Sequence record: HE978309
Source: Enterobacteria phage GEC-3S
Strand: one strand, 5' to 3'
DNA length: 64,000 nt
Shown here: piece by piece, positions 51,571 through 61,765 of the stretch
Layout of the letters: every line of letters begins with the position of its first letter
Position numbering within the stretch: position 1 is the first letter of the stretch
Program-made: the position numbers and the translations under genes
Notes under the pieces: generated by a model
The model's database searches: none
What the model was told of the DNA's origin: nothing
Seen by the model: only the letters and a program-made list of their open reading frames with translations

Positions 51571-54339
51571 ATGGCAGATTTAAGCAGAATCCAATTTAAA
51601 CGCACTAGCACTAAAGGTCGTAAACCTGATGCTAGTACGATGAATCCGGGGGAATTGGCAATCAACCTTGCGGATCAATATCTTCTTACTAAAAATGATT
51701 CCGGTGCTATTATCAATTTAAGTTGCCCTCCGGTGTATGACCGTGATGTTACAATGGCGGGTAAGGTTAAAGGTAATAATTATATCTTAGGTAAAACCGC
51801 CAACTATCTGGAAGATCAGACAGCGCGAGATCTTAACTACTTTGGTGCTTTCCGTACCAATGGTCTTGATGGTTTTCTCGAACTCACGCTAAACGTTCCT
51901 CATTCTTCTGGTGTTCAGCATGGTCGAGGATTTACTTTCCAGTATGGACACACAGGAAACCGTGTAGAAACTTATGGTTATAATAAAGAAGGACAAAAAG
52001 CATTTAGCTATAAAATGTATCACGAAGGTGATAAACCAACACCCTCAGAATTGAACGTTTACAGCAAACAAGAAGTTGACCGTATGTTTGTTAAAAACGT
52101 TAAACTTGCTACAGTTCCTGGTGATATAGTTGACGGTTATTTTAAATTAGCAACTGCAATGATTCCGCAAAGCGGTCGTAGTGTATTTTTCCGTATTCAT
52201 GGTGGTAACGGATATAACGTTACTGCATACGATCAAGTTGATATTGTAGAAATTGTTATTCGCAGTGGAAATAATCGTCCTAAAGGTGTTAACGTTATTG
52301 CATATCGCCGAAATACAAACAAAGCATTTGATGTTTTGGCTGTTAATACTTCTGGTGATAACTATGATATCTACGTGAAATATCAGCGTTATACTGATAA
52401 CGTTATTGTTGAATTTGGTAAAAGTGTTGATGTTAATCTGGTAGTCCATGACGTTCCAGACTTTGTTGTTGATCGTCCTGCTGGCGATAATGTTATTGGC
52501 GGTCGCGCGGTAACTCTTTTTAACACCGAAAACAAACGAGGTGTGTTGAGTTTTGACGATAACACACAAAATAGTTATGATATTGTTCACTTGAGTAATG
52601 ATAGGGGTACTGGACGAAAATATATTCGTAAATTCCGTAGTAACTATAATGAAATGATCTGGCACGAGACGGTTCAAGGCGCCAGCTATCGTCTGGCTAC
52701 TGGTGCAACTGATGTTCAGGAGATTCTAACCGTTGAATCTGTTAGCTCAATTGCTGGAACTCATAAAGGTAATATTACTTCTGGCCGTATGCTGTTAAAT
52801 GGTGGTAGTAATGTTATTACCTTGCGGCGTCCTGCTGGTCAATCCAACCATATTGCGTTTCAAGATAATCGTACTGGAGATATTACCCGTCAAGGATGGA
52901 TCGGTTATGCCAATGCTGATACTAACGTTTTTGAATGGTATAGTGATGTAGGTGGCAGTTCTATTCGTCAACATATCGACGGACAGATCGAATTTCAGAC
53001 AGGTAGCATGAAGCGAGTTTATACTAACGGACAATTCATTTCATTATATGCCGATGGCTTCCGTACAGTATATGGAAACTATGGTTCATGGTGGCGAAAT
53101 GACGGTAGTAACGTTTATCTGATGAGCACAAAATCAGGCGACACTATGGGTCCGTGGAATACCTTTAGGCCGTTCATATACAGTCTCGCCAATGGAAACG
53201 TTACTCTAGGTGGTAGCGATGCTGGCAACCATTTAATGCGTCTCAATAATGAAAATCGTCAAGTAGAAATAAATGCAACAACACATTTAGGGTCTCGATT
53301 ATATTGGGAACGTAGCGAAGGATCGGCATCTAGATTTTTTATTAAGAATTGGGGTAATGGATCTTCTCGCGCTCAAGTGTGGGAACTTGCTGACGAGACA
53401 GGTTATCATGTATATTCTCAGCGAAACGACGCGGGTGTTCTTCAATTCCGTACTGCTGGTAATTTTGAGACTGGTGGTGATGCTCAAGTAAACGGGACTT
53501 TACGTGTCACCAATGTTCTTCGAACAGATAACCAAATTCAGATTTATCGCGATAACAACAAAGAACTCTGGTTTAAGGATGCTAATGGTACTAACCGTGG
53601 TGTTATCTGGGGTGATAGCACAGGTCAAATGCGCATTCGAAACTATAACAGCGGAGAATTTGACCATGTTTTCCAGACTGGTATGATTCGCTTAGAACGT
53701 GGGTATGCAAACGGTAGCGACCGTGGTTTGATTCGCGGAGAAGTACAAGGTGGTGCTTGGTCAGAATGGAAAACTCGCGCTGCTGGCTTATTGGTTGACT
53801 GTCCAGCTGCTCAAACTTCCGCATATAACGTATGGAAAGCGACCAAATGGGGTTTAGACCACATCGCGGCAATGGGCGTTCATGTTCCTAGTGGCGTTAT
53901 TACTAATGCTATGGCACGTCTTCATATTCATACCACAAACTTTGACTTTAACGCCTCCGGTGATTTCCAAGCAGGTCGTAACGGTAATTTTAACGATGTG
54001 TATATTCGTTCTGATGCTCGCCTTAAAATCAATAAGGAAGAGTATAAGGAGAATGCCACCGATAAAGTTAATCGCTTGACGGTATACACCTATGACAAGG
54101 TTAAATCTTTAACCGACCGTACTGTCATTGCTCATGAAGTTGGTATTATTGCTCAGGATCTTGAGAAAGAATTGCCGGAAGCCGTAACAACTTCTAAGGT
54201 CGGCGATCCTGATAAGCCAGAAGAGATCTTAACAATTTCTAACTCTGCTGTCAACGCTCTTTTAATTAAGGCGTTTCAGGAAATGAGCGAAGAACTTAAA
54301 GCCGTTAAAGCTGAACTAGCGGAACTTAAAAAGAATTAA
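51571..54339 (+). CDS. 37: gp37 long tail fibre distal subunit with C-terminal intramolecular chaperone (peptidase S74-like) domain
   Basis: 922 aa; N-terminus MADLSRIQFKRTSTKGRKP similar to T4 gp37; C-terminal about 110 aa begins SDARLKINKE. Confidence 0.8.
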   Translation: MADLSRIQFKRTSTKGRKPDASTMNPGELAINLADQYLLTKNDSGAIINLSCPPVYDRDVTMAGKVKGNNYILGKTANYLEDQTARDLNYFGAFRTNGLDGFLELTLNVPHSSGVQHGRGFTFQYGHTGNRVETYGYNKEGQKAFSYKMYHEGDKPTPSELNVYSKQEVDRMFVKNVKLATVPGDIVDGYFKLATAMIPQSGRSVFFRIHGGNGYNVTAYDQVDIVEIVIRSGNNRPKGVNVIAYRRNTNKAFDVLAVNTSGDNYDIYVKYQRYTDNVIVEFGKSVDVNLVVHDVPDFVVDRPAGDNVIGGRAVTLFNTENKRGVLSFDDNTQNSYDIVHLSNDRGTGRKYIRKFRSNYNEMIWHETVQGASYRLATGATDVQEILTVESVSSIAGTHKGNITSGRMLLNGGSNVITLRRPAGQSNHIAFQDNRTGDITRQGWIGYANADTNVFEWYSDVGGSSIRQHIDGQIEFQTGSMKRVYTNGQFISLYADGFRTVYGNYGSWWRNDGSNVYLMSTKSGDTMGPWNTFRPFIYSLANGNVTLGGSDAGNHLMRLNNENRQVEINATTHLGSRLYWERSEGSASRFFIKNWGNGSSRAQVWELADETGYHVYSQRNDAGVLQFRTAGNFETGGDAQVNGTLRVTNVLRTDNQIQIYRDNNKELWFKDANGTNRGVIWGDSTGQMRIRNYNSGEFDHVFQTGMIRLERGYANGSDRGLIRGEVQGGAWSEWKTRAAGLLVDCPAAQTSAYNVWKATKWGLDHIAAMGVHVPSGVITNAMARLHIHTTNFDFNASGDFQAGRNGNFNDVYIRSDARLKINKEEYKENATDKVNRLTVYTYDKVKSLTDRTVIAHEVGIIAQDLEKELPEAVTTSKVGDPDKPEEILTISNSAVNALLIKAFQEMSEELKAVKAELAELKKN

Positions 54340-54381: not shown

Positions 54382-54621
54382 ATGGTCTATAATATCGTCA
54401 TTGGTGCTTTGTCTAGTTTCGGAATGAAATTATTGTCAAAGTTAATTAGTGAAAAGATGCTCACTAAAATTTTCTTCTATTGCGCTCGTCGTCTTGCGGC
54501 TTATACCAATACGCCAATTGATGATCGTTTTGTGGAAGAACTTTATAAGGAGTTTAATAAAGATCAGTCAGAAGATAGTAACGAGCAAGAGAAACCTAGT
54601 GATAGTCAACTACCTAAATAA
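54382..54621 (+). CDS. small protein with N-terminal hydrophobic helix (79 aa)
   Basis: ORF track; AAGGAGAAACGGCT RBS; sits where gp38 lies in T4 but shows no resemblance. Confidence 0.45.
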   Translation: MVYNIVIGALSSFGMKLLSKLISEKMLTKIFFYCARRLAAYTNTPIDDRFVEELYKEFNKDQSEDSNEQEKPSDSQLPK

Positions 54622-54654: not shown

Positions 54655-55311
54655 ATGCAAGTTTCTGAAAAAGGGAAAGACTTTGCTATCTCAAATGTCC
54701 TGCGCGCTATTTTCACAACTAAAAGCACGGAGTTGCTCGTACTTCGTGTTTTTGCTGCCGTCGTGTTGTCCATATTGGCATTTGTCGTTTATAGTAAAAA
54801 CGAGTTGTTTGCGCTTTATAAAGAGACTCGTTATGAGACTTATGCTCACATTCTCCAGGTAGAGAAAGACCGCAATTTTGATAATGCAGCACAGGAGCAG
54901 TTACAGATAGTTCATGTGTCGGCTGATGCCGATTTTTCTGCTGTTTTTAGTTTTCGTCCGAAAAACCTAAACTATTTTGTTGATTTGGTGGCATATGAAG
55001 GAAAGTTGCCGCATACAATCGATGAAAAAAATTTAGGCGGATTCCCTATCAATAAAACGAGTGAAGAATATCGTAGGCATCTTTTAGGTAAATCATATTT
55101 TACCGATAAAGATTTCCAGTATATTCCATCAAGAGAAAAGAAATTAGAGAATATCGATATAGGTTTCATGTATTCTTGTCCTATATTCAATCTCGATAAT
55201 GTCTATTCTGGTAGTATCGCCATTTCATGGAAGAATAAACCGGATATTGACATTGAGAATTTAGATACTCTTTGCAATCAATCTGCCAGAATCCTCGGAA
55301 GGATTAGATAA
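54655..55311 (+). CDS. t: holin
   Basis: 218 aa; ETRYETYAHILQVEKDR...LQIVHVSADADFSAVFSFRPKNLNYFVDLVAYEGKLP...SARILGR matches T4 holin T. Confidence 0.9.
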   Translation: MQVSEKGKDFAISNVLRAIFTTKSTELLVLRVFAAVVLSILAFVVYSKNELFALYKETRYETYAHILQVEKDRNFDNAAQEQLQIVHVSADADFSAVFSFRPKNLNYFVDLVAYEGKLPHTIDEKNLGGFPINKTSEEYRRHLLGKSYFTDKDFQYIPSREKKLENIDIGFMYSCPIFNLDNVYSGSIAISWKNKPDIDIENLDTLCNQSARILGRIR

Positions 55312-55315
55312 CTTA

Positions 55316-55347
55316 AAGGGGAAGCCTTTCGGCCTCCCCTTCTTTTT
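55316..55347. terminator. terminator between convergent genes
   Basis: hairpin with UUUC/GAAA loop followed by TTCTTTTTATT. Confidence 0.55.
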
Positions 55348-55594
55348 ATTGGCGCATAGAAGCCCCTGAATCACATTTTGACGCTGTATGATGAAAACAG
55401 GTAGCGTACCAGTCATCGGCTTGTTTGTCTTCGTCAGAAAACGCGTAATTGCGTTGTATGCCGTTTTCTACTTTGACCAGTGCAATAGCTGTTTCTGGAA
55501 GATCAATCAATCGGACAAAATCACCATCTTCCCACTCTACACGAGCAATATCATAGCCCATCTCAAAGTATACAATCGCTTGTTCTAATTTCAT
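55346..55594 (-). CDS. DUF2829-like small protein, candidate Tad2-type anti-defence sponge
   Basis: 82 aa; pattern ...YDIARVEW...DKQADDWY resembles DUF2829/Tad2 as I recall it. Confidence 0.4.
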   Translation of the reverse strand: MKLEQAIVYFEMGYDIARVEWEDGDFVRLIDLPETAIALVKVENGIQRNYAFSDEDKQADDWYATCFHHTASKCDSGASMRQ

Positions 55595-55914
55595 TCTGGA
55601 AACTTCCCGTAAACATTCTCTGCCAGCTTACGTGCATCTTTTACAATATCTTTCATGTAGTGACTATAATTTTTAGCTAGATCAATGATGCAATCAACAA
55701 AGAAGTAATAGCGTCGCAGTGCTACCAGCTCAACATCTTCAAGATGACCATTTTCTCCAATCGCTGAAATATGTTTAAATTCCTTTCGGATCGCATCCAT
55801 CGCTACATTAACTTCTTTTATAATATCTTTCGTATTATATGCACCTCGACTAATCAAAATTTTGGTTAGGTCTTCTGCTTTTTCGTGAAAGTTGTCAATT
55901 TCAAACTCGATCAT
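55591..55914 (-). CDS. hypothetical protein, paralog pair member 1
   Basis: ORF track 55591..55920 starts at GTG; ATG with GAGAGGTGA RBS; C-terminus ...ENVYGKF. Confidence 0.45.
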   Translation of the reverse strand: MIEFEIDNFHEKAEDLTKILISRGAYNTKDIIKEVNVAMDAIRKEFKHISAIGENGHLEDVELVALRRYYFFVDCIIDLAKNYSHYMKDIVKDARKLAENVYGKFPE

Positions 55915-56028
55915 AATCACCTCTCATAATTTCACGCTGTTGTTTCAACATTTTTTCGTGGTTTGCTAATTCTATACCTTGTAATAGCATAACCAGTGCA
56001 ATTTTCAATGATTCATCATCTTTCATAA

Positions 56029-56361
56029 TCAAAATTTACCGAAAATATTCTCTGTCATAATTCTTGCTTCGTCGATTATTTTCGTCATGTTCATGGTGTA
56101 GTTATGATCATTTAATGCCTTAATGACAACGAGCAAGGAATCTAAAAACACTCGATACCGGGTATATTCTACGCTATTTGTGAATACCGATGTTTTCTCT
56201 ACTTTATCGATCAGATAGCCTAAAACCGATAGCGCCTCGTTTACTTCCCTTGTTACTTTATCGGCGCTAAACAACACCGGATAAAGACGCGGTGTGATTA
56301 ACCGCGCTGCCTCTTTCAATTCGGTCGCTTTCCATGATTCATATTTGTCATAGTTAAACAA
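56029..56361 (-). CDS. hypothetical protein, paralog pair member 2
   Basis: 110 aa; C-terminus ...ENIFGKF. Confidence 0.45.
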   Translation of the reverse strand: MFNYDKYESWKATELKEAARLITPRLYPVLFSADKVTREVNEALSVLGYLIDKVEKTSVFTNSVEYTRYRVFLDSLLVVIKALNDHNYTMNMTKIIDEARIMTENIFGKF

Positions 56362-56714: not shown

Positions 56715-57083
56715 TCACTTAACAAAGATTTTCTTTAATGCTTTCAGGATCGTTGCTTCCGGCGCTTCTTCCGGTGGAGGAAGCAATTCTACCACTTCCT
56801 CTTCCAACTCGATATAGTCTACCAGATATTCTACATAGAATGCAAGTGCTTCCATGAAATTAGATGCTACATCCGATTCGCCACACGCGCCCACATGCAT
56901 TGTATAAACATCACTGCGATCAAGTTTGTGGATGCTCCCCAGATAGTTTCGGTTATACCAGACTTCCCACACTTTCAACTTTCCGGTTTTGGTTGCTGTT
57001 TTATAATCGGTTTCGTAATGATGCAATTGACGTTGCAGATCATTGATAATAACACATTTTTCGTAATTGTTTTGAATTTCCAT
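56715..57083 (-). CDS. hypothetical protein (122 aa)
   Basis: ORF track. Confidence 0.45.
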   Translation of the reverse strand: MEIQNNYEKCVIINDLQRQLHHYETDYKTATKTGKLKVWEVWYNRNYLGSIHKLDRSDVYTMHVGACGESDVASNFMEALAFYVEYLVDYIELEEEVVELLPPPEEAPEATILKALKKIFVK

Positions 57084-57308: not shown

Positions 57309-57590
57309 TTATTTTCGGTTGTAATTCTGCCACTTTCGGTAATACTGCTTGTAATATTGTTTAATGTTTGGTGGTTCGTCACTATACATGTTATCAACCA
57401 TCATGTCAATAAGACCTTCCGGTGTTTGATAGTTACCCGCTCGAATGAGTTCCTTAATCAAAAGATCTTGTGTCGCTTTATACTTGACAATAACAACTGT
57501 CTTTTCTGCCTTTCCAATTCCGATCCGGTCGTTAGCTCTCATAGCATCCCACCAATCTTTTTTAAACTTCATGTTGTTAAATTTCATCAT
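57309..57590 (-). CDS. hypothetical protein (93 aa)
   Basis: ORF track. Confidence 0.4.
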   Translation of the reverse strand: MMKFNNMKFKKDWWDAMRANDRIGIGKAEKTVVIVKYKATQDLLIKELIRAGNYQTPEGLIDMMVDNMYSDEPPNIKQYYKQYYRKWQNYNRK

Positions 57591-58391
57591 TTAACCCTTC
57601 TTATATTCGCAAACATATTGAGTACCATAATCATAGCTAATGCGACCTTTCTCGATGACTTCAAAGCGGATTTCATCGTTTTCCCCTACCCACATTTTGT
57701 ACTCGTTGAAGTATCCTGCTACATCCGGTTTGCTCATACCAACAACCATATTTTTATATTGTTTGCTGCGTGTCAGATTTGATTTAAACACTTCGCGCTC
57801 ATCAACATATACGAAAGAAGACAATTCACCTTCGGTCATGGTCATTTTCAGCTTGCCGCCCTTGTTGCCATAAGTAGAGTTGCCATACAATGGATCTTTG
57901 CGGCTGTCTGTTTCAATACCATCAATGATTTTCCATGTAAATTTTGCAATGCACTGATAAGTGATAGATCCAGAGATTTTCTCTTCTTTCTTCTGTTCTT
58001 CCACCACTTTTTCTTCCTGTTTCGGCTGTTCTTCTTCAACCTTCACGGAAGTCTCTGAATCGATTTCTGACGCGGTTTCTTCTTTAGGTAATACATTCAT
58101 CAAGTTTTGGATTTGAGCGTTATATACAGCCTCCAGTGGCTGGATCTGCCCGATATTGATCATTGTATCACGAACAGTTTTATTCCAGTTGCGTTGCTCT
58201 TGTTTAAGAGACGGATCAATCTTAACAGCCTTAACATATACTTCATGAAGTTTCGAATCCAGTGCGGAGATTGACTCATTAGCACAAATAAACTTCTCTG
58301 ATTTGGTAGTAGCTTTAGCGCAATCAAAGGACGCAGCATTAGCACCGAAAGCAGTAGCAGAAAGAACGATAGCAGCGATAATGTTTTTCAT
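57591..58391 (-). CDS. secreted protein with DUF1311 (LprI-like) N-terminal domain
   Basis: 266 aa; signal peptide MKNIIAAIVLSATAFGANA; FDCAKATTKSEKFIC...LDSKLHEVY. Confidence 0.5.
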   Translation of the reverse strand: MKNIIAAIVLSATAFGANAASFDCAKATTKSEKFICANESISALDSKLHEVYVKAVKIDPSLKQEQRNWNKTVRDTMINIGQIQPLEAVYNAQIQNLMNVLPKEETASEIDSETSVKVEEEQPKQEEKVVEEQKKEEKISGSITYQCIAKFTWKIIDGIETDSRKDPLYGNSTYGNKGGKLKMTMTEGELSSFVYVDEREVFKSNLTRSKQYKNMVVGMSKPDVAGYFNEYKMWVGENDEIRFEVIEKGRISYDYGTQYVCEYKKG

Positions 58392-60407: not shown

Positions 60408-61765
60408 CCCTTCTTAAGTTCTTTAAGATCTTTCTTATATTCCTTCATTGCGGTCGTCTTTGTCCAATACTCATATTCACTATGATGTTTATCGGCATCT
60501 TTGACCAGTCGATCATACTCTTCTTGAGTAACGCTATACAATGGCATAGAAACTAGCTTATCGGCGTATGAACGTAGTTTTTCATGTCCATTGATGGATT
60601 GCATTACCTCGGCCTTTTTCTTGCCCTGTAGCTCGATTTCGCCCTTAATTACGCGATCGATAAATTCGGCTTTAGCCATTGCATAATTGTATGCTTCCAG
60701 CGTTTCCGCTTGCATCAATTCAATGCGTTTATCGACATACCCTAATCGGATTTCGACGAATCGACGGATCAGATCGCTCGCTTTCTCGAATACTTCTACT
60801 AAACCACGTTCGTTAACTACCACGATATTCTGGGCTACTAACTGCGTTAGTTTAAAATCCTTCATGATTTGCTCGTGTCGAGCGGATTCATCTTCGCTTT
60901 TGAAATAATCGCGTTTCAGTGTTACTTCAAATCTGAATCCGTCCTTAGAGCAACGGTCATTATATGAGACAATCAGATCTTTTTCTTCCAGTGCATCCAG
61001 TACCGCTACATATTCTTCACGATCGAACTTATAAGGAACTTCTGATATTGTTAGTTTAGTCTTGCCGTTTAGTTCATATGTACCCTCAAGGATCACCCCA
61101 TCGCGATCATCTCGCGGGATAACTTTACCCGTGAATTTCGGGAATTGAACACTAGGTTCTTTATCCAGTTTTCCGGCAAGTGCTAGCTCTGTGCATTCAA
61201 TGAGGCTTTCCAGTGAATGCGGTAAAATGTCAGTTTTATACCCTGTAGCAATACCACTAATACCATTAGCCAATACCATCGGCACAACTGGCAAGTAGAA
61301 CGCTGGCGGGATGTGTTCCAGATCTTCGTGCTTAGGTGCGCAATTCATATCTTTATAGATTTTAAAGAAGTTTTCATGCACACGAGCAAAAATATAACGT
61401 GCTGCACCTGCTTTCTGGACTAAACGCGATCCGAAGTTACCTTGACCGTCAAGCAGTGGAGTATTATTGCTCCATGTATTCGCCATGAGTGATCCGGCTT
61501 CTACGGCATTAGTTTCGCCGTGGTGATACCCCAACTCAGCAACACCAGATCCAATATCTGCCATCTTACGGAATTTCTTACGGTCGCCTTTACTCTTTTG
61601 CAAAGCACATTCCATAACAAAGCGTTGCACTGGTTTAAGCCCATCCACTAATTGAGGAATCCCGCGTTCCTCGGCAGAATAGATCGCATATTCCTTAGCT
61701 TCATTATGTACAATGCTTTCAAGGCTACGGTAAGTAACTGATTTATTCATCTTCACCTCATACAC
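60404..61765 (-). CDS. 52: gp52 DNA topoisomerase II medium subunit
   Basis: 453 aa; GyrA-like N-terminus LVDGLKPVQRFV, active-site region AARYIFAR. Confidence 0.9.
   Translation of the reverse strand: MYEVKMNKSVTYRSLESIVHNEAKEYAIYSAEERGIPQLVDGLKPVQRFVMECALQKSKGDRKKFRKMADIGSGVAELGYHHGETNAVEAGSLMANTWSNNTPLLDGQGNFGSRLVQKAGAARYIFARVHENFFKIYKDMNCAPKHEDLEHIPPAFYLPVVPMVLANGISGIATGYKTDILPHSLESLIECTELALAGKLDKEPSVQFPKFTGKVIPRDDRDGVILEGTYELNGKTKLTISEVPYKFDREEYVAVLDALEEKDLIVSYNDRCSKDGFRFEVTLKRDYFKSEDESARHEQIMKDFKLTQLVAQNIVVVNERGLVEVFEKASDLIRRFVEIRLGYVDKRIELMQAETLEAYNYAMAKAEFIDRVIKGEIELQGKKKAEVMQSINGHEKLRSYADKLVSMPLYSVTQEEYDRLVKDADKHHSEYEYWTKTTAMKEYKKDLKELKKG

What the first reader, a model, noticed from the sequence alone, without database searches (positions are those of the whole stretch)
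55346..55594. Candidate Tad2-like (DUF2829) anti-defence sponge next to the holin gene
This 82-aa protein has a pattern (YDIARVEW ... DKQADDWY) that resembles, as far as I can recall, the DUF2829 family that includes Tad2, which sequesters Thoeris signalling molecules. It sits in the position where T4 has asiA/arn/motA, and I could not recognise any of those three genes here.
Basis: inference. Interest (0 to 1): 0.55.

Follow-up and report, generated by a model that had tools for sequence, protein, structure and literature searches.

The report
Divergent minimal Tad2-like gene in RB49-type phage
The 82-residue gene next to the holin gene of this RB49-like coliphage is a real, conserved, very small and divergent member of the Tad2/DUF2829 family of phage "sponge" proteins that soak up bacterial immune signals, but what it binds, if anything, is untested and its predicted pocket differs from the characterised ones.

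Summary
The ORF is real: window 55346-55594, minus strand, 82 aa. The window is a Krischvirus (RB49/JSE/Phi1-like), and the protein is 100% identical to RB49p255. All 57 GenBank phage records call it "hypothetical protein"; UniRef already auto-names it "Thoeris anti-defense 2-like domain-containing protein".

Family membership is well supported.
- Pfam PF11195 scores 27.9 bits against a cut-off of 25, over almost the whole profile.

The syntenic claim also holds. The gene sits where T4 has asiA, and no AsiA, Arn or MotA homolog is in the window, which is already known for RB49.

Function is inferred only.
- The protein lacks the β2-β3 insertion/α2 helix.
- The phosphate-binding loop GWNGK is replaced by acidic EWEDG.
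- The motif W-x-P-S-x-T-D reads Y-A-F-S-D-E-D. The equivalents of W25, S76 and D79 are kept, while those of N26 and T78 are Glu.
- No experimentally tested Tad2 is a close relative.

Verdict: a new, untested member of a known family, of modest interest.

The parts
55346..55594 (-). CDS of 82 aa plus stop (= RB49p255, NP_891826.1), a Tad2-like/DUF2829 protein
   Evidence: ORF list and sequence. It is 100% identical to RB49p255. PF11195 scores 27.9 bits, E 3.4e-6; phrog_1048 E 5.4e-19.
55391..55594 (-). Folded Tad2-like core, residues 1-68, with topology alpha1(3-12)-beta1(14-18)-beta2(26-32)-beta3(36-43)-beta4(46-49)-alpha(54-58)-beta5(62-67)
55349..55390 (-). C-terminal tail, residues 69-82, predicted disordered. 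It is variable in sequence and absent from canonical Tad2 and from the Klebsiella-phage relatives.
   Evidence: pLDDT below 50 for residues 69/70-82. Alignment A3. Natural substitutions at positions 71, 74, 78, 80 and 81.
55526..55537 (-). Codons E20-W21-E22-D23, the beta1-beta2 loop that aligns with the canonical G-W-N-G ligand/phosphate-binding loop. The Trp is kept, Asn is replaced by Glu and Gly by Asp.
   Evidence: hhalign full-length alignment. Contact residues for SPO1 Tad2 (W25, N26) and HgmTad2 (W21, N22, G23) come from papers read.
55427..55447 (-). Codons Y50-A-F-S53-D-E55-D56, which align with the canonical W-x-P-S-x-T-D motif (SPO1 W73, S76, T78, D79)
   Evidence: hhalign register, supported by the predicted N44-G45 hairpin turn. 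Y50 and D56 are invariant across both short subfamilies.
55591..55594 (-). ATGA overlap between the start codon and the stop codon of the upstream gene (55591-55920), implying co-transcription and translational coupling
   Evidence: Sequence and ORF coordinates
55315..55342 (.). GC-rich 12-bp hairpin between the convergent genes t and RB49p255, starting 3 nt after the stop codon. It is a probable bidirectional terminator.
   Evidence: RNA fold -23.6 kcal/mol, z -4.44, 0 of 200 shuffles as stable. Some GenBank records annotate a terminator here (H28). The simple terminator scan did not list it.
57381..57409 (-). Nearest strong sigma-70-type promoter match upstream on the coding strand (TTGACA-17-TATAGT, 11 of 12), a candidate early promoter of the leftward cluster. 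This is a consensus match only.
   Evidence: The total number of matches is not above shuffles, so this is weak evidence. Novel ORFs of T4-like phages are reported to be expressed with early genes (PMC1524935).

Best explanation
The gene encodes a minimal, divergent member of the Tad2/DUF2829 fold family: a 63-68-residue core plus a disordered tail. It is the last gene of the leftward cluster of small, probably early genes that runs from topoisomerase gene 52 to holin t, in the slot that asiA occupies in T4.

The most likely function, by homology, is that it assembles into a homo-oligomer whose inter-subunit pockets bind and sequester a nucleotide-derived immune signal. That would blunt a signalling defence of the enterobacterial host, such as Thoeris or possibly CBASS or Pycsar.

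Shown here: the gene is real and conserved, it belongs to the family by profile, and it has the Tad2 fold. Inferred: oligomerisation, ligand binding and anti-defence activity. The identity of the ligand is open. The canonical gcADPR contacts are only partly retained, so binding in the exact SPO1-Tad2 manner is doubtful.
For: Family and fold:
- PF11195 is above its gathering score across the whole domain. Relatives P0004 and P0005 also pass it.
- Foldseek's top 8 PDB hits are all Tad2.
- About 34 viral DUF2829/Tad2-like models match at probability 1.00, including equally short ones.

Pocket:
- Full-length hhalign (E 1e-4 to 5e-4) aligns W21, S53 and D56 with the ligand-contact residues W25, S76 and D79 of SPO1 Tad2, and Y50 with W73 (residues).
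- W21, Y50 and D56 are invariant across two diverged short subfamilies and unchanged in 15 natural variants.

Context and precedent:
- The position is conserved in relatives at 49-59% identity.
- 13 of 18 diverse Tad2 homologs tested by Hadary et al. inhibited at least one signalling system. These include non-canonical ones: Tad2_72, Tad2_75 and Tad2_79.
Against: - No binding or infection data exist.
- The canonical phosphate-binding loop G-W-N-G-K is E-W-E-D-G here. N26/N22 and G23, which bind the diphosphate, become Glu and Asp, and the Lys is lost. Known sponges have positively charged pockets (10.1101/2025.07.12.664507).
- The adenine-contacting T78 is Glu. The core has net charge -9.
- The beta2-beta3 insertion with helix alpha2 is reduced to 4 residues. 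In SPO1 Tad2 that element makes the V-shaped dimer, and in HgmTad2 it makes the cyclic-dinucleotide pocket.
- Tad2_80, the tested homolog with the most similar loop (LEWPDDG, 73 aa), was inactive against all seven systems.
- No tested homolog is closer than about 21 bits by BLASTP.
- Sequence-only searches against the PDB find nothing. The Pfam score is only 3 bits above the cut-off.
Confidence: 0.5

Rival explanations
1. It is a Tad2-fold protein that no longer sequesters any of the known immune signals, or never did. It is either a decayed relic kept by linkage, or it uses the fold for another purpose, such as binding a different small molecule or a host protein.
For: - The loop is acidic where the canonical one is basic. 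N26 and T78 are replaced by Glu, and alpha2 is absent.
- 5 of 18 tested Tad2 homologs inhibited nothing, including the loop-similar Tad2_80.
- The subfamily is tiny and isolated: only 3 genuine clusters among 1.84 billion representatives.
Against: - The equivalents of the two aromatic residues and the Asp of the pocket are invariant over 49-59% divergence and in a second subfamily from N4-like Klebsiella phages.
- The gene stays intact at the same locus in all 57 Krischvirus records, which argues against a relic.
Confidence: 0.35
2. It is an acidic DNA-mimic or anti-restriction protein, functionally analogous to T4 Arn, which lies in the same asiA-motA interval.
For: The core has net charge -9 and pI about 4.1. 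T4 carries the anti-McrBC protein Arn in the syntenic region.
Against: There is no sequence similarity to Arn. The fold is Tad2 and nothing else. SPO1 Tad2 is itself acidic (net -5), so acidity does not discriminate.
Confidence: 0.05
3. It replaces AsiA functionally as a small regulator of host RNA polymerase, since it sits in the asiA slot.
For: Position only.
Against: There is no similarity to AsiA. AsiA is all-helical (established knowledge), whereas this protein is mainly beta. RB49 lacks MotA-dependent middle promoters altogether.
Confidence: 0.03
4. It is not a gene, only a chance ORF in a spacer between convergent genes.
For: None beyond its small size.
Against: The profile hit, the confident fold, conservation of the protein at 49-59% identity with preserved length and position, and the ATGA coupling.
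Confidence: 0.01

Closest known systems
SPO1 Tad2 (Gp34.65; PDB 8SME/8SMF/8SMG/8WJE), the founding gcADPR sponge that inhibits type I Thoeris
   Same: Same fold: N-terminal helix, five-stranded antiparallel sheet, and a short helix between beta4 and beta5. Both are small, acidic phage proteins. The equivalents of W25, S76 and D79 and the terminal A-x-D-W are retained, and W73 is conservatively Tyr.
   Different: About 18% identity. The 24-residue beta2-beta3 insertion with helix alpha2 (the V-dimer interface) is missing. N26 becomes E, T78 becomes E, D67 becomes N and H71 becomes R, and the loop Lys is lost. It has an extra disordered C-terminal tail of about 15 residues. Oligomeric state and ligand are unknown.
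ModTad2 (PDB 9EIB/8V3E; sequesters His-ADPR and, per Hadary et al., Pycsar cUMP/cCMP) and HgmTad2/AcrIIA7 (PDB 8KBI etc.; sequesters gcADPR plus cGG/cGAMP)
   Different: Both carry long beta2-beta3 insertions that build a second pocket. In HgmTad2 that pocket binds cyclic dinucleotides. RB49p255 has only a 4-residue loop there, so that second pocket cannot exist. Identity is 18-26%.
Non-canonical Tad2 homologs tested by Hadary et al. 2025 (Tad2_79, Tad2_80, Tad2_72, Tad2_75, Tad2_69)
   Same: They are short (69-108 aa) and their loops deviate from GWNGKG. Tad2_80 has LEWPDDG against VEWEDGD here.
   Different: None is a close relative (at most 21 bits). Their phenotypes range from broad activity to none: Tad2_79 acts on type I and IV Thoeris and CBASS, while Tad2_80 and Tad2_69 inhibit nothing. 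They therefore do not predict the activity of RB49p255.
68-72-aa DUF2829-like proteins of N4-like Klebsiella phages and Klebsiella genomes (e.g. VLCpiP4a P4a_00012; P0009-P0014)
   Same: They share the variant motif Y-x-[PF]-[ST]-D-x-D-[KRM]...D-W, the minimal length and the acidic loop. Identity is 28-34% over the core.
   Different: They lack the C-terminal tail. They lie between two tail-protein genes and not next to a holin. The VLCpiP4a protein is below the Pfam cut-off (21.0 bits).
T4 asiA-arn-motA interval
   Same: Same genomic slot: the first gene on the opposite strand after holin t, within the leftward cluster ending at gene 52.
   Different: No homology to AsiA, Arn or MotA.

Membership tests
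Tad2-like / DUF2829 (Pfam PF11195) | Match to the PF11195 profile at or above the curated gathering score, over the whole domain | tested here: met
   27.9 bits against a cut-off of 25, E 3.4e-6, protein residues 1-63 on profile positions 1-71 of 73. The margin is small. Relatives P0004 and P0005 score 26.1 and 25.5 bits.
Tad2-like / DUF2829 (Pfam PF11195) | Tad2 fold: N-terminal alpha helix, five-stranded antiparallel beta sheet, and a short helix between beta4 and beta5 | tested here: met
Tad2 sponges (functional clade) | Trp of the beta1-beta2 loop that stacks on the ligand (SPO1 W25 / Hgm W21) | tested here: met
   W21 aligns with it and is invariant in alignment A3.
Tad2 sponges (functional clade) | Asn-Gly(-Lys) of the G-W-N-G-K loop, which binds the diphosphate (SPO1 N26; Hgm N22/G23; the W21A/N22A mutant loses binding) | tested here: not met
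   The sequence is E-W-E-D-G: E22 replaces Asn, D23 replaces Gly, and there is no Lys.
Tad2 sponges (functional clade) | C-terminal motif W-x-[PA]-S-x-[TS]-D-x-L-A-x-D-W (SPO1 W73, S76, T78, D79; the Hgm S90A/T92A/D93A mutant loses binding) | tested here: inconclusive
   Here it reads Y50-A-F-S53-D-E55-D56-K-Q-A-D-D-W62. Ser, Asp, Ala and D-W are kept, Trp becomes Tyr and Thr becomes Glu.
Tad2 sponges (functional clade) | Insertion between beta2 and beta3 carrying helix alpha2, which forms the V/X-shaped dimer of the tetramer | tested here: not met
   Only 4 residues (L32-P-E-T35) link beta2 and beta3. Other short DUF2829 proteins of 66-75 aa also exist, so this may define a short sub-type and need not exclude membership.
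Tad2 sponges (functional clade) | Homotetramer with ligand pockets at protomer interfaces | not testable with these tools
Tad2 sponges (functional clade) | Binds a TIR- or CD-NTase-derived signal and rescues phage from the matching defence system | not testable with these tools
   This needs biochemistry and infection assays. The sequence is absent from the 18 tested homologs of Hadary et al..
T4 AsiA / Arn / MotA | Detectable sequence similarity to the T4 proteins | tested here: not met
   tblastn of the T4 proteins against the whole window gives best E >= 1, while the control gp52 gives 2e-147. No Pfam hits appear in the neighbouring ORFs.

The most novel reading that the evidence does not exclude
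The Krischvirus protein, together with its small enterobacterial-phage subfamily, is a Tad2-fold sponge whose remodelled acidic pocket (EWEDG loop, Tyr for Trp, invariant E-D-K) is tuned to an immune signal that characterised sponges do not recognise in this way. Candidates are a cationic or metal-bridged ADPR derivative such as N7-cADPR from the type IV Thoeris found in E. coli, or a signal not yet discovered. In that case the protein could serve as bait to identify the molecule.
Probability: 0.12. Interest if true: 0.7.

Novelty: new member of a known kind. Interest (0 to 1): 0.33.

Why it matters
RB49-type phages are classical model and therapeutic coliphages, yet this gene is still "hypothetical protein" in every GenBank record. 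Recognising it as a Tad2-fold protein gives a concrete, cheap hypothesis for one of the many unknown early genes of T4-like phages.

It also adds a naturally minimal, pocket-variant member to a family whose ligand range is expanding quickly: gcADPR, His-ADPR, N7-cADPR, cyclic dinucleotides and cUMP/cCMP. If it binds a signal, it would show that the alpha2 insertion and the basic GWNGK loop are dispensable. If it binds nothing known, it is a candidate bait for an undiscovered signal.

The family assignment itself is already made automatically by UniProt/InterPro, so the gain is incremental.

Tried and rejected
- Sequence search of the single protein against PDB chains found no hit even at E <= 10. 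A 4-sequence profile also found nothing.
- Default local hhalign of the subfamily profiles against four PDB Tad2 sequences aligned only the N-terminal 23 residues (probability 5-12%). Only relaxed or global settings gave the full-length alignment (E 1e-4 to 5e-4, probability about 31-33%). Sequence-only linkage outside the deep Pfam profile is therefore weak.
- Exhaustive phmmer over 1.84 billion representatives gave only P0001, P0002, P0004 and P0005 as true relatives, plus the 40-aa truncated near-identical fragment P0006. P0003, P0007 and P0008 are fn3-repeat or other repeat proteins with summed spurious scores, and were rejected.
- Searching the 5.8-billion set with the alignment and scanning IMG/VR added no new relatives.
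- MAFFT placed a 1-residue gap in the beta3-beta4 hairpin. I rejected that register in favour of the ungapped one, which hhalign reproduces and which matches the predicted N44-G45 turn.
- Literature searches for Tad2 with RB49, Krischvirus or T4-like returned nothing. The one paper containing both RB49 and Thoeris was irrelevant.
- I searched the supplements of Hadary et al. for the sequence and found none. The Tad2 sheet of Table S1 is truncated in the held copy, so its absence from their 7,492 homologs cannot be asserted.
- C66, H68, H69 and C74 in the tail looked like a possible metal site. I rejected this because C74 varies (Y or F) and the relatives have no Cys.

Full report
**Observation**

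The quoted strings YDIARVEW and DKQADDWY are residues 14-21 and 56-63.

The gene converges on holin t (54655-55311, +; Pfam Phage_holin_T E 4.5e-61). The 34-bp gap contains a 12-bp GC-rich hairpin that begins 3 nt after the stop codon (-23.6 kcal/mol, z -4.4). This is most likely a shared bidirectional terminator. The start codon overlaps the stop codon of the upstream gene (ATGA, 55591-55594), so the gene is the last cistron of a leftward cluster.

**Identity of the window**

Megablast shows a Krischvirus (RB49, JSE, Phi1 and relatives) at 98-99% identity. The protein is 100% identical to RB49p255 (NP_891826.1). It is present at 97.6-100% identity in 57 phage records, and all of them annotate it "hypothetical protein". 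UniRef, by contrast, already names the Krischvirus cluster "Thoeris anti-defense 2-like domain-containing protein". The family label therefore exists at the level of automatic annotation.

**Family membership**

- Pfam PF11195 (Tad2-like, formerly DUF2829) is hit at 27.9 bits against a gathering score of 25. The E-value is 3.4e-6, and residues 1-63 cover profile positions 1-71 of 73.
- PHROG 1048 is hit at E 5.4e-19. NCBIfam has nothing.
- The protein is very isolated in sequence space. An exhaustive phmmer scan of 1.84 billion representatives found only four genuine relatives (P0001, P0002, P0004, P0005) plus P0006, a 40-aa truncated near-identical fragment. The other 'hits' are fn3-repeat or other repeat proteins and are false positives. 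A profile search and an IMG/VR scan added nothing.
- P0004 (59% identity) and P0005 (49%) are the same length and each passes PF11195. Each sits in the same place, as the last gene before a convergent holin t in a T4-like contig.
- A weak tblastn hit led to a second short subfamily of 68-72 aa in N4-like Klebsiella phages and Klebsiella genomes. It shares the variant C-terminal motif.

**Structure**

Two template-free AlphaFold2 runs gave the same topology: alpha1, beta1, beta2, beta3, beta4, a short alpha helix, beta5, and then a disordered tail from residue 69/70. The second run, on a 10-sequence alignment, has pLDDT about 90 over the core.

- Foldseek against the PDB returned eight Tad2 chains as the top eight hits (SPO1 and Myroides), at probability 1.00 and TM 0.55-0.62. 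The ninth hit drops to E 0.9.
- Against viral predicted structures, about 34 proteins matched at probability 1.00. Most are named Tad2-like or DUF2829, and several are equally short at 66-83 aa.

The Tad2 structures were released from 2023 onward, and no templates were used. As far as I know this postdates AlphaFold2's training data, so I treat the fold match as evidence independent of the Pfam hit. I put family and fold membership at about 0.9.

**Pocket comparison**

The published ligand-contact residues are as follows.
- SPO1 Tad2: W25, N26, I63, T65, D67, H71, W73, S76, T78, D79 (10.1101/2023.05.01.538930).
- HgmTad2: W21, N22, G23, W87, L88, S90, T92, D93. The W21A/N22A and S90A/T92A/D93A mutants lose gcADPR binding (10.1101/2023.11.15.567273).

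I recovered the PDB sequences with a retrieval probe. Full-length hhalign (E 1e-4 to 5e-4) then gives this mapping:

| SPO1 Tad2 | RB49p255 |
|---|---|
| W25 | W21 |
| N26 | E22 |
| I63 | V40 |
| T65 | V42 |
| D67 | N44 |
| H71 | R48 |
| W73 | Y50 |
| S76 | S53 |
| T78 | E55 |
| D79 | D56 |

The terminal A-x-D-W is conserved. MAFFT shifted the hairpin by one residue. The predicted N44-G45 turn supports the hhalign register.

The aromatic-Ser-Asp skeleton of the pocket is therefore kept. W21, Y50 and D56 are invariant across both short subfamilies and untouched in 15 natural variants.

The phosphate-binding G-W-N-G-K loop, however, is E-W-E-D-G, and the adenine-contacting Thr is Glu. The core carries net charge -9. 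Known sponges are described as having positively charged inter-protomer pockets (10.1101/2025.07.12.664507).

The beta2-beta3 insertion is reduced to four residues. In SPO1 Tad2 it supplies helix alpha2 of the V-shaped dimer. In HgmTad2 it builds the cyclic-dinucleotide pocket. A second pocket of that type cannot exist here, and the oligomeric assembly may differ.

**Functional precedent**

Hadary et al. (10.1101/2025.08.24.671296) tested 18 Tad2 homologs against seven signalling systems, and 13 were active on at least one. The family now covers 3'cADPR, His-ADPR, N7-cADPR (type IV Thoeris, which occurs in E. coli and restricts T6), cGAMP and Pycsar cUMP/cCMP.

Among homologs with non-canonical loops:
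- Tad2_72, Tad2_75 and Tad2_79 were active.
- Tad2_69, Tad2_80 and Tad2_81 were not.
- Tad2_80 has a loop (LEWPDDG) most like the one here, and it was negative on all seven systems.

RB49p255 is not among the tested proteins. It is no closer than about 21 bits to any of them, so no phenotype can be transferred. I therefore put the sponge function at roughly even odds and leave the ligand open.

**Synteny**

In T4 the gene after holin t on the opposite strand is asiA, followed by arn and motA up to gene 52. In this window gene 52 lies at 60428-61729, and T4 AsiA, Arn and MotA have no match anywhere. The failure to find a motA ortholog or middle promoters in RB49 is documented (PMC1524935).

Several sigma-70-like matches lie on the coding strand upstream, for example 57409-57381 with 11 of 12 positions. 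This is consistent with early transcription. Their number does not exceed shuffles, however, so expression timing is inferred and not shown.

**Verdict**

The 'sponge' function remains a reasonable but untested inference, weakened by a non-canonical acidic loop and the missing alpha2 element.

This is a new, uncharacterised and unusually minimal member of a known anti-defence family. UniProt already labels it automatically, but GenBank and the searchable literature do not. Interest is modest. It would rise substantially if the variant pocket proved to bind a signal that other sponges miss.

Noticed in passing
window 55591-55920 (-) and 56029-56361 (-): Two neighbouring genes of 109 and 110 aa both match phrog_9457 (E 8e-57 and 3e-43). 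They are distant paralogs: BLASTP 37% identity over the C-terminal 43 residues, E 8e-8. This looks like an old tandem duplication of an unknown early gene directly upstream of the Tad2-like gene. A 43-aa ORF (55901-56032) lies between them, and RB49 annotates its counterpart as RB49p256.1.
   Followed up: partly
window 57591-58391 (-): A 266-aa protein with an apparent N-terminal signal peptide (by eye) and a weak LprI (lysozyme-inhibitor) domain hit (PF07007, 24 bits, E 5e-5). It matches phrog_14799. This is a possible secreted or periplasmic protein within the early cluster.
   Followed up: no
window 51571-54339 (+): The 922-aa distal long-tail-fibre protein carries a Gp34_trimer-like domain (residues 441-537) and a C-terminal Peptidase_S74 intramolecular chaperone domain (residues 814-873). 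No gp38-type adhesin or chaperone gene follows it. The relative on contig L003 has a GP38 gene instead.
   Followed up: partly
window 56715-57083 (-): This 122-aa protein (phrog_1594) is the only gene of the interval that RB49's annotation links to T4 ('similar to a hypothetical T4 12.8 kD protein in the AsiA-MotA region'). Its counterpart on L003 carries PF26821 Phage_T4_Y16F. It marks the synteny with the T4 asiA-motA interval.
   Followed up: no
proteins P0002 and P0006 (metagenome relatives of window 55346-55594): P0002 matches the protein up to about residue 58 and then continues with a sequence resembling the translation of the opposite strand (the + strand ORF 55388-55588). This looks like a fold-back chimeric contig and not a real variant. 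P0006 is a similar truncated artefact. Neither should be used as evidence of frameshifted alleles.
   Followed up: partly
window 54382-54621 (+): A small 79-aa protein with a hydrophobic N-terminus lies between the tail-fibre gene and holin t (phrog_402). RB49 annotates an internal start of it as 'Dc5'. The L003 counterpart carries PF26925 (Phage_PM2_Gpl). Its function is unknown.
   Followed up: no
L005 2453-2659 (Klebsiella phage VLCpiP4a, Schitoviridae): A 68-aa DUF2829-like gene is wedged between two tail-protein genes of an N4-like phage. It is below the Pfam cut-off (21 bits) but shares the Y-x-P-T-D-x-D-K...DW variant motif. Homologs also occur on long Klebsiella contigs of up to 978 kb, presumably in prophages.
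   Followed up: partly
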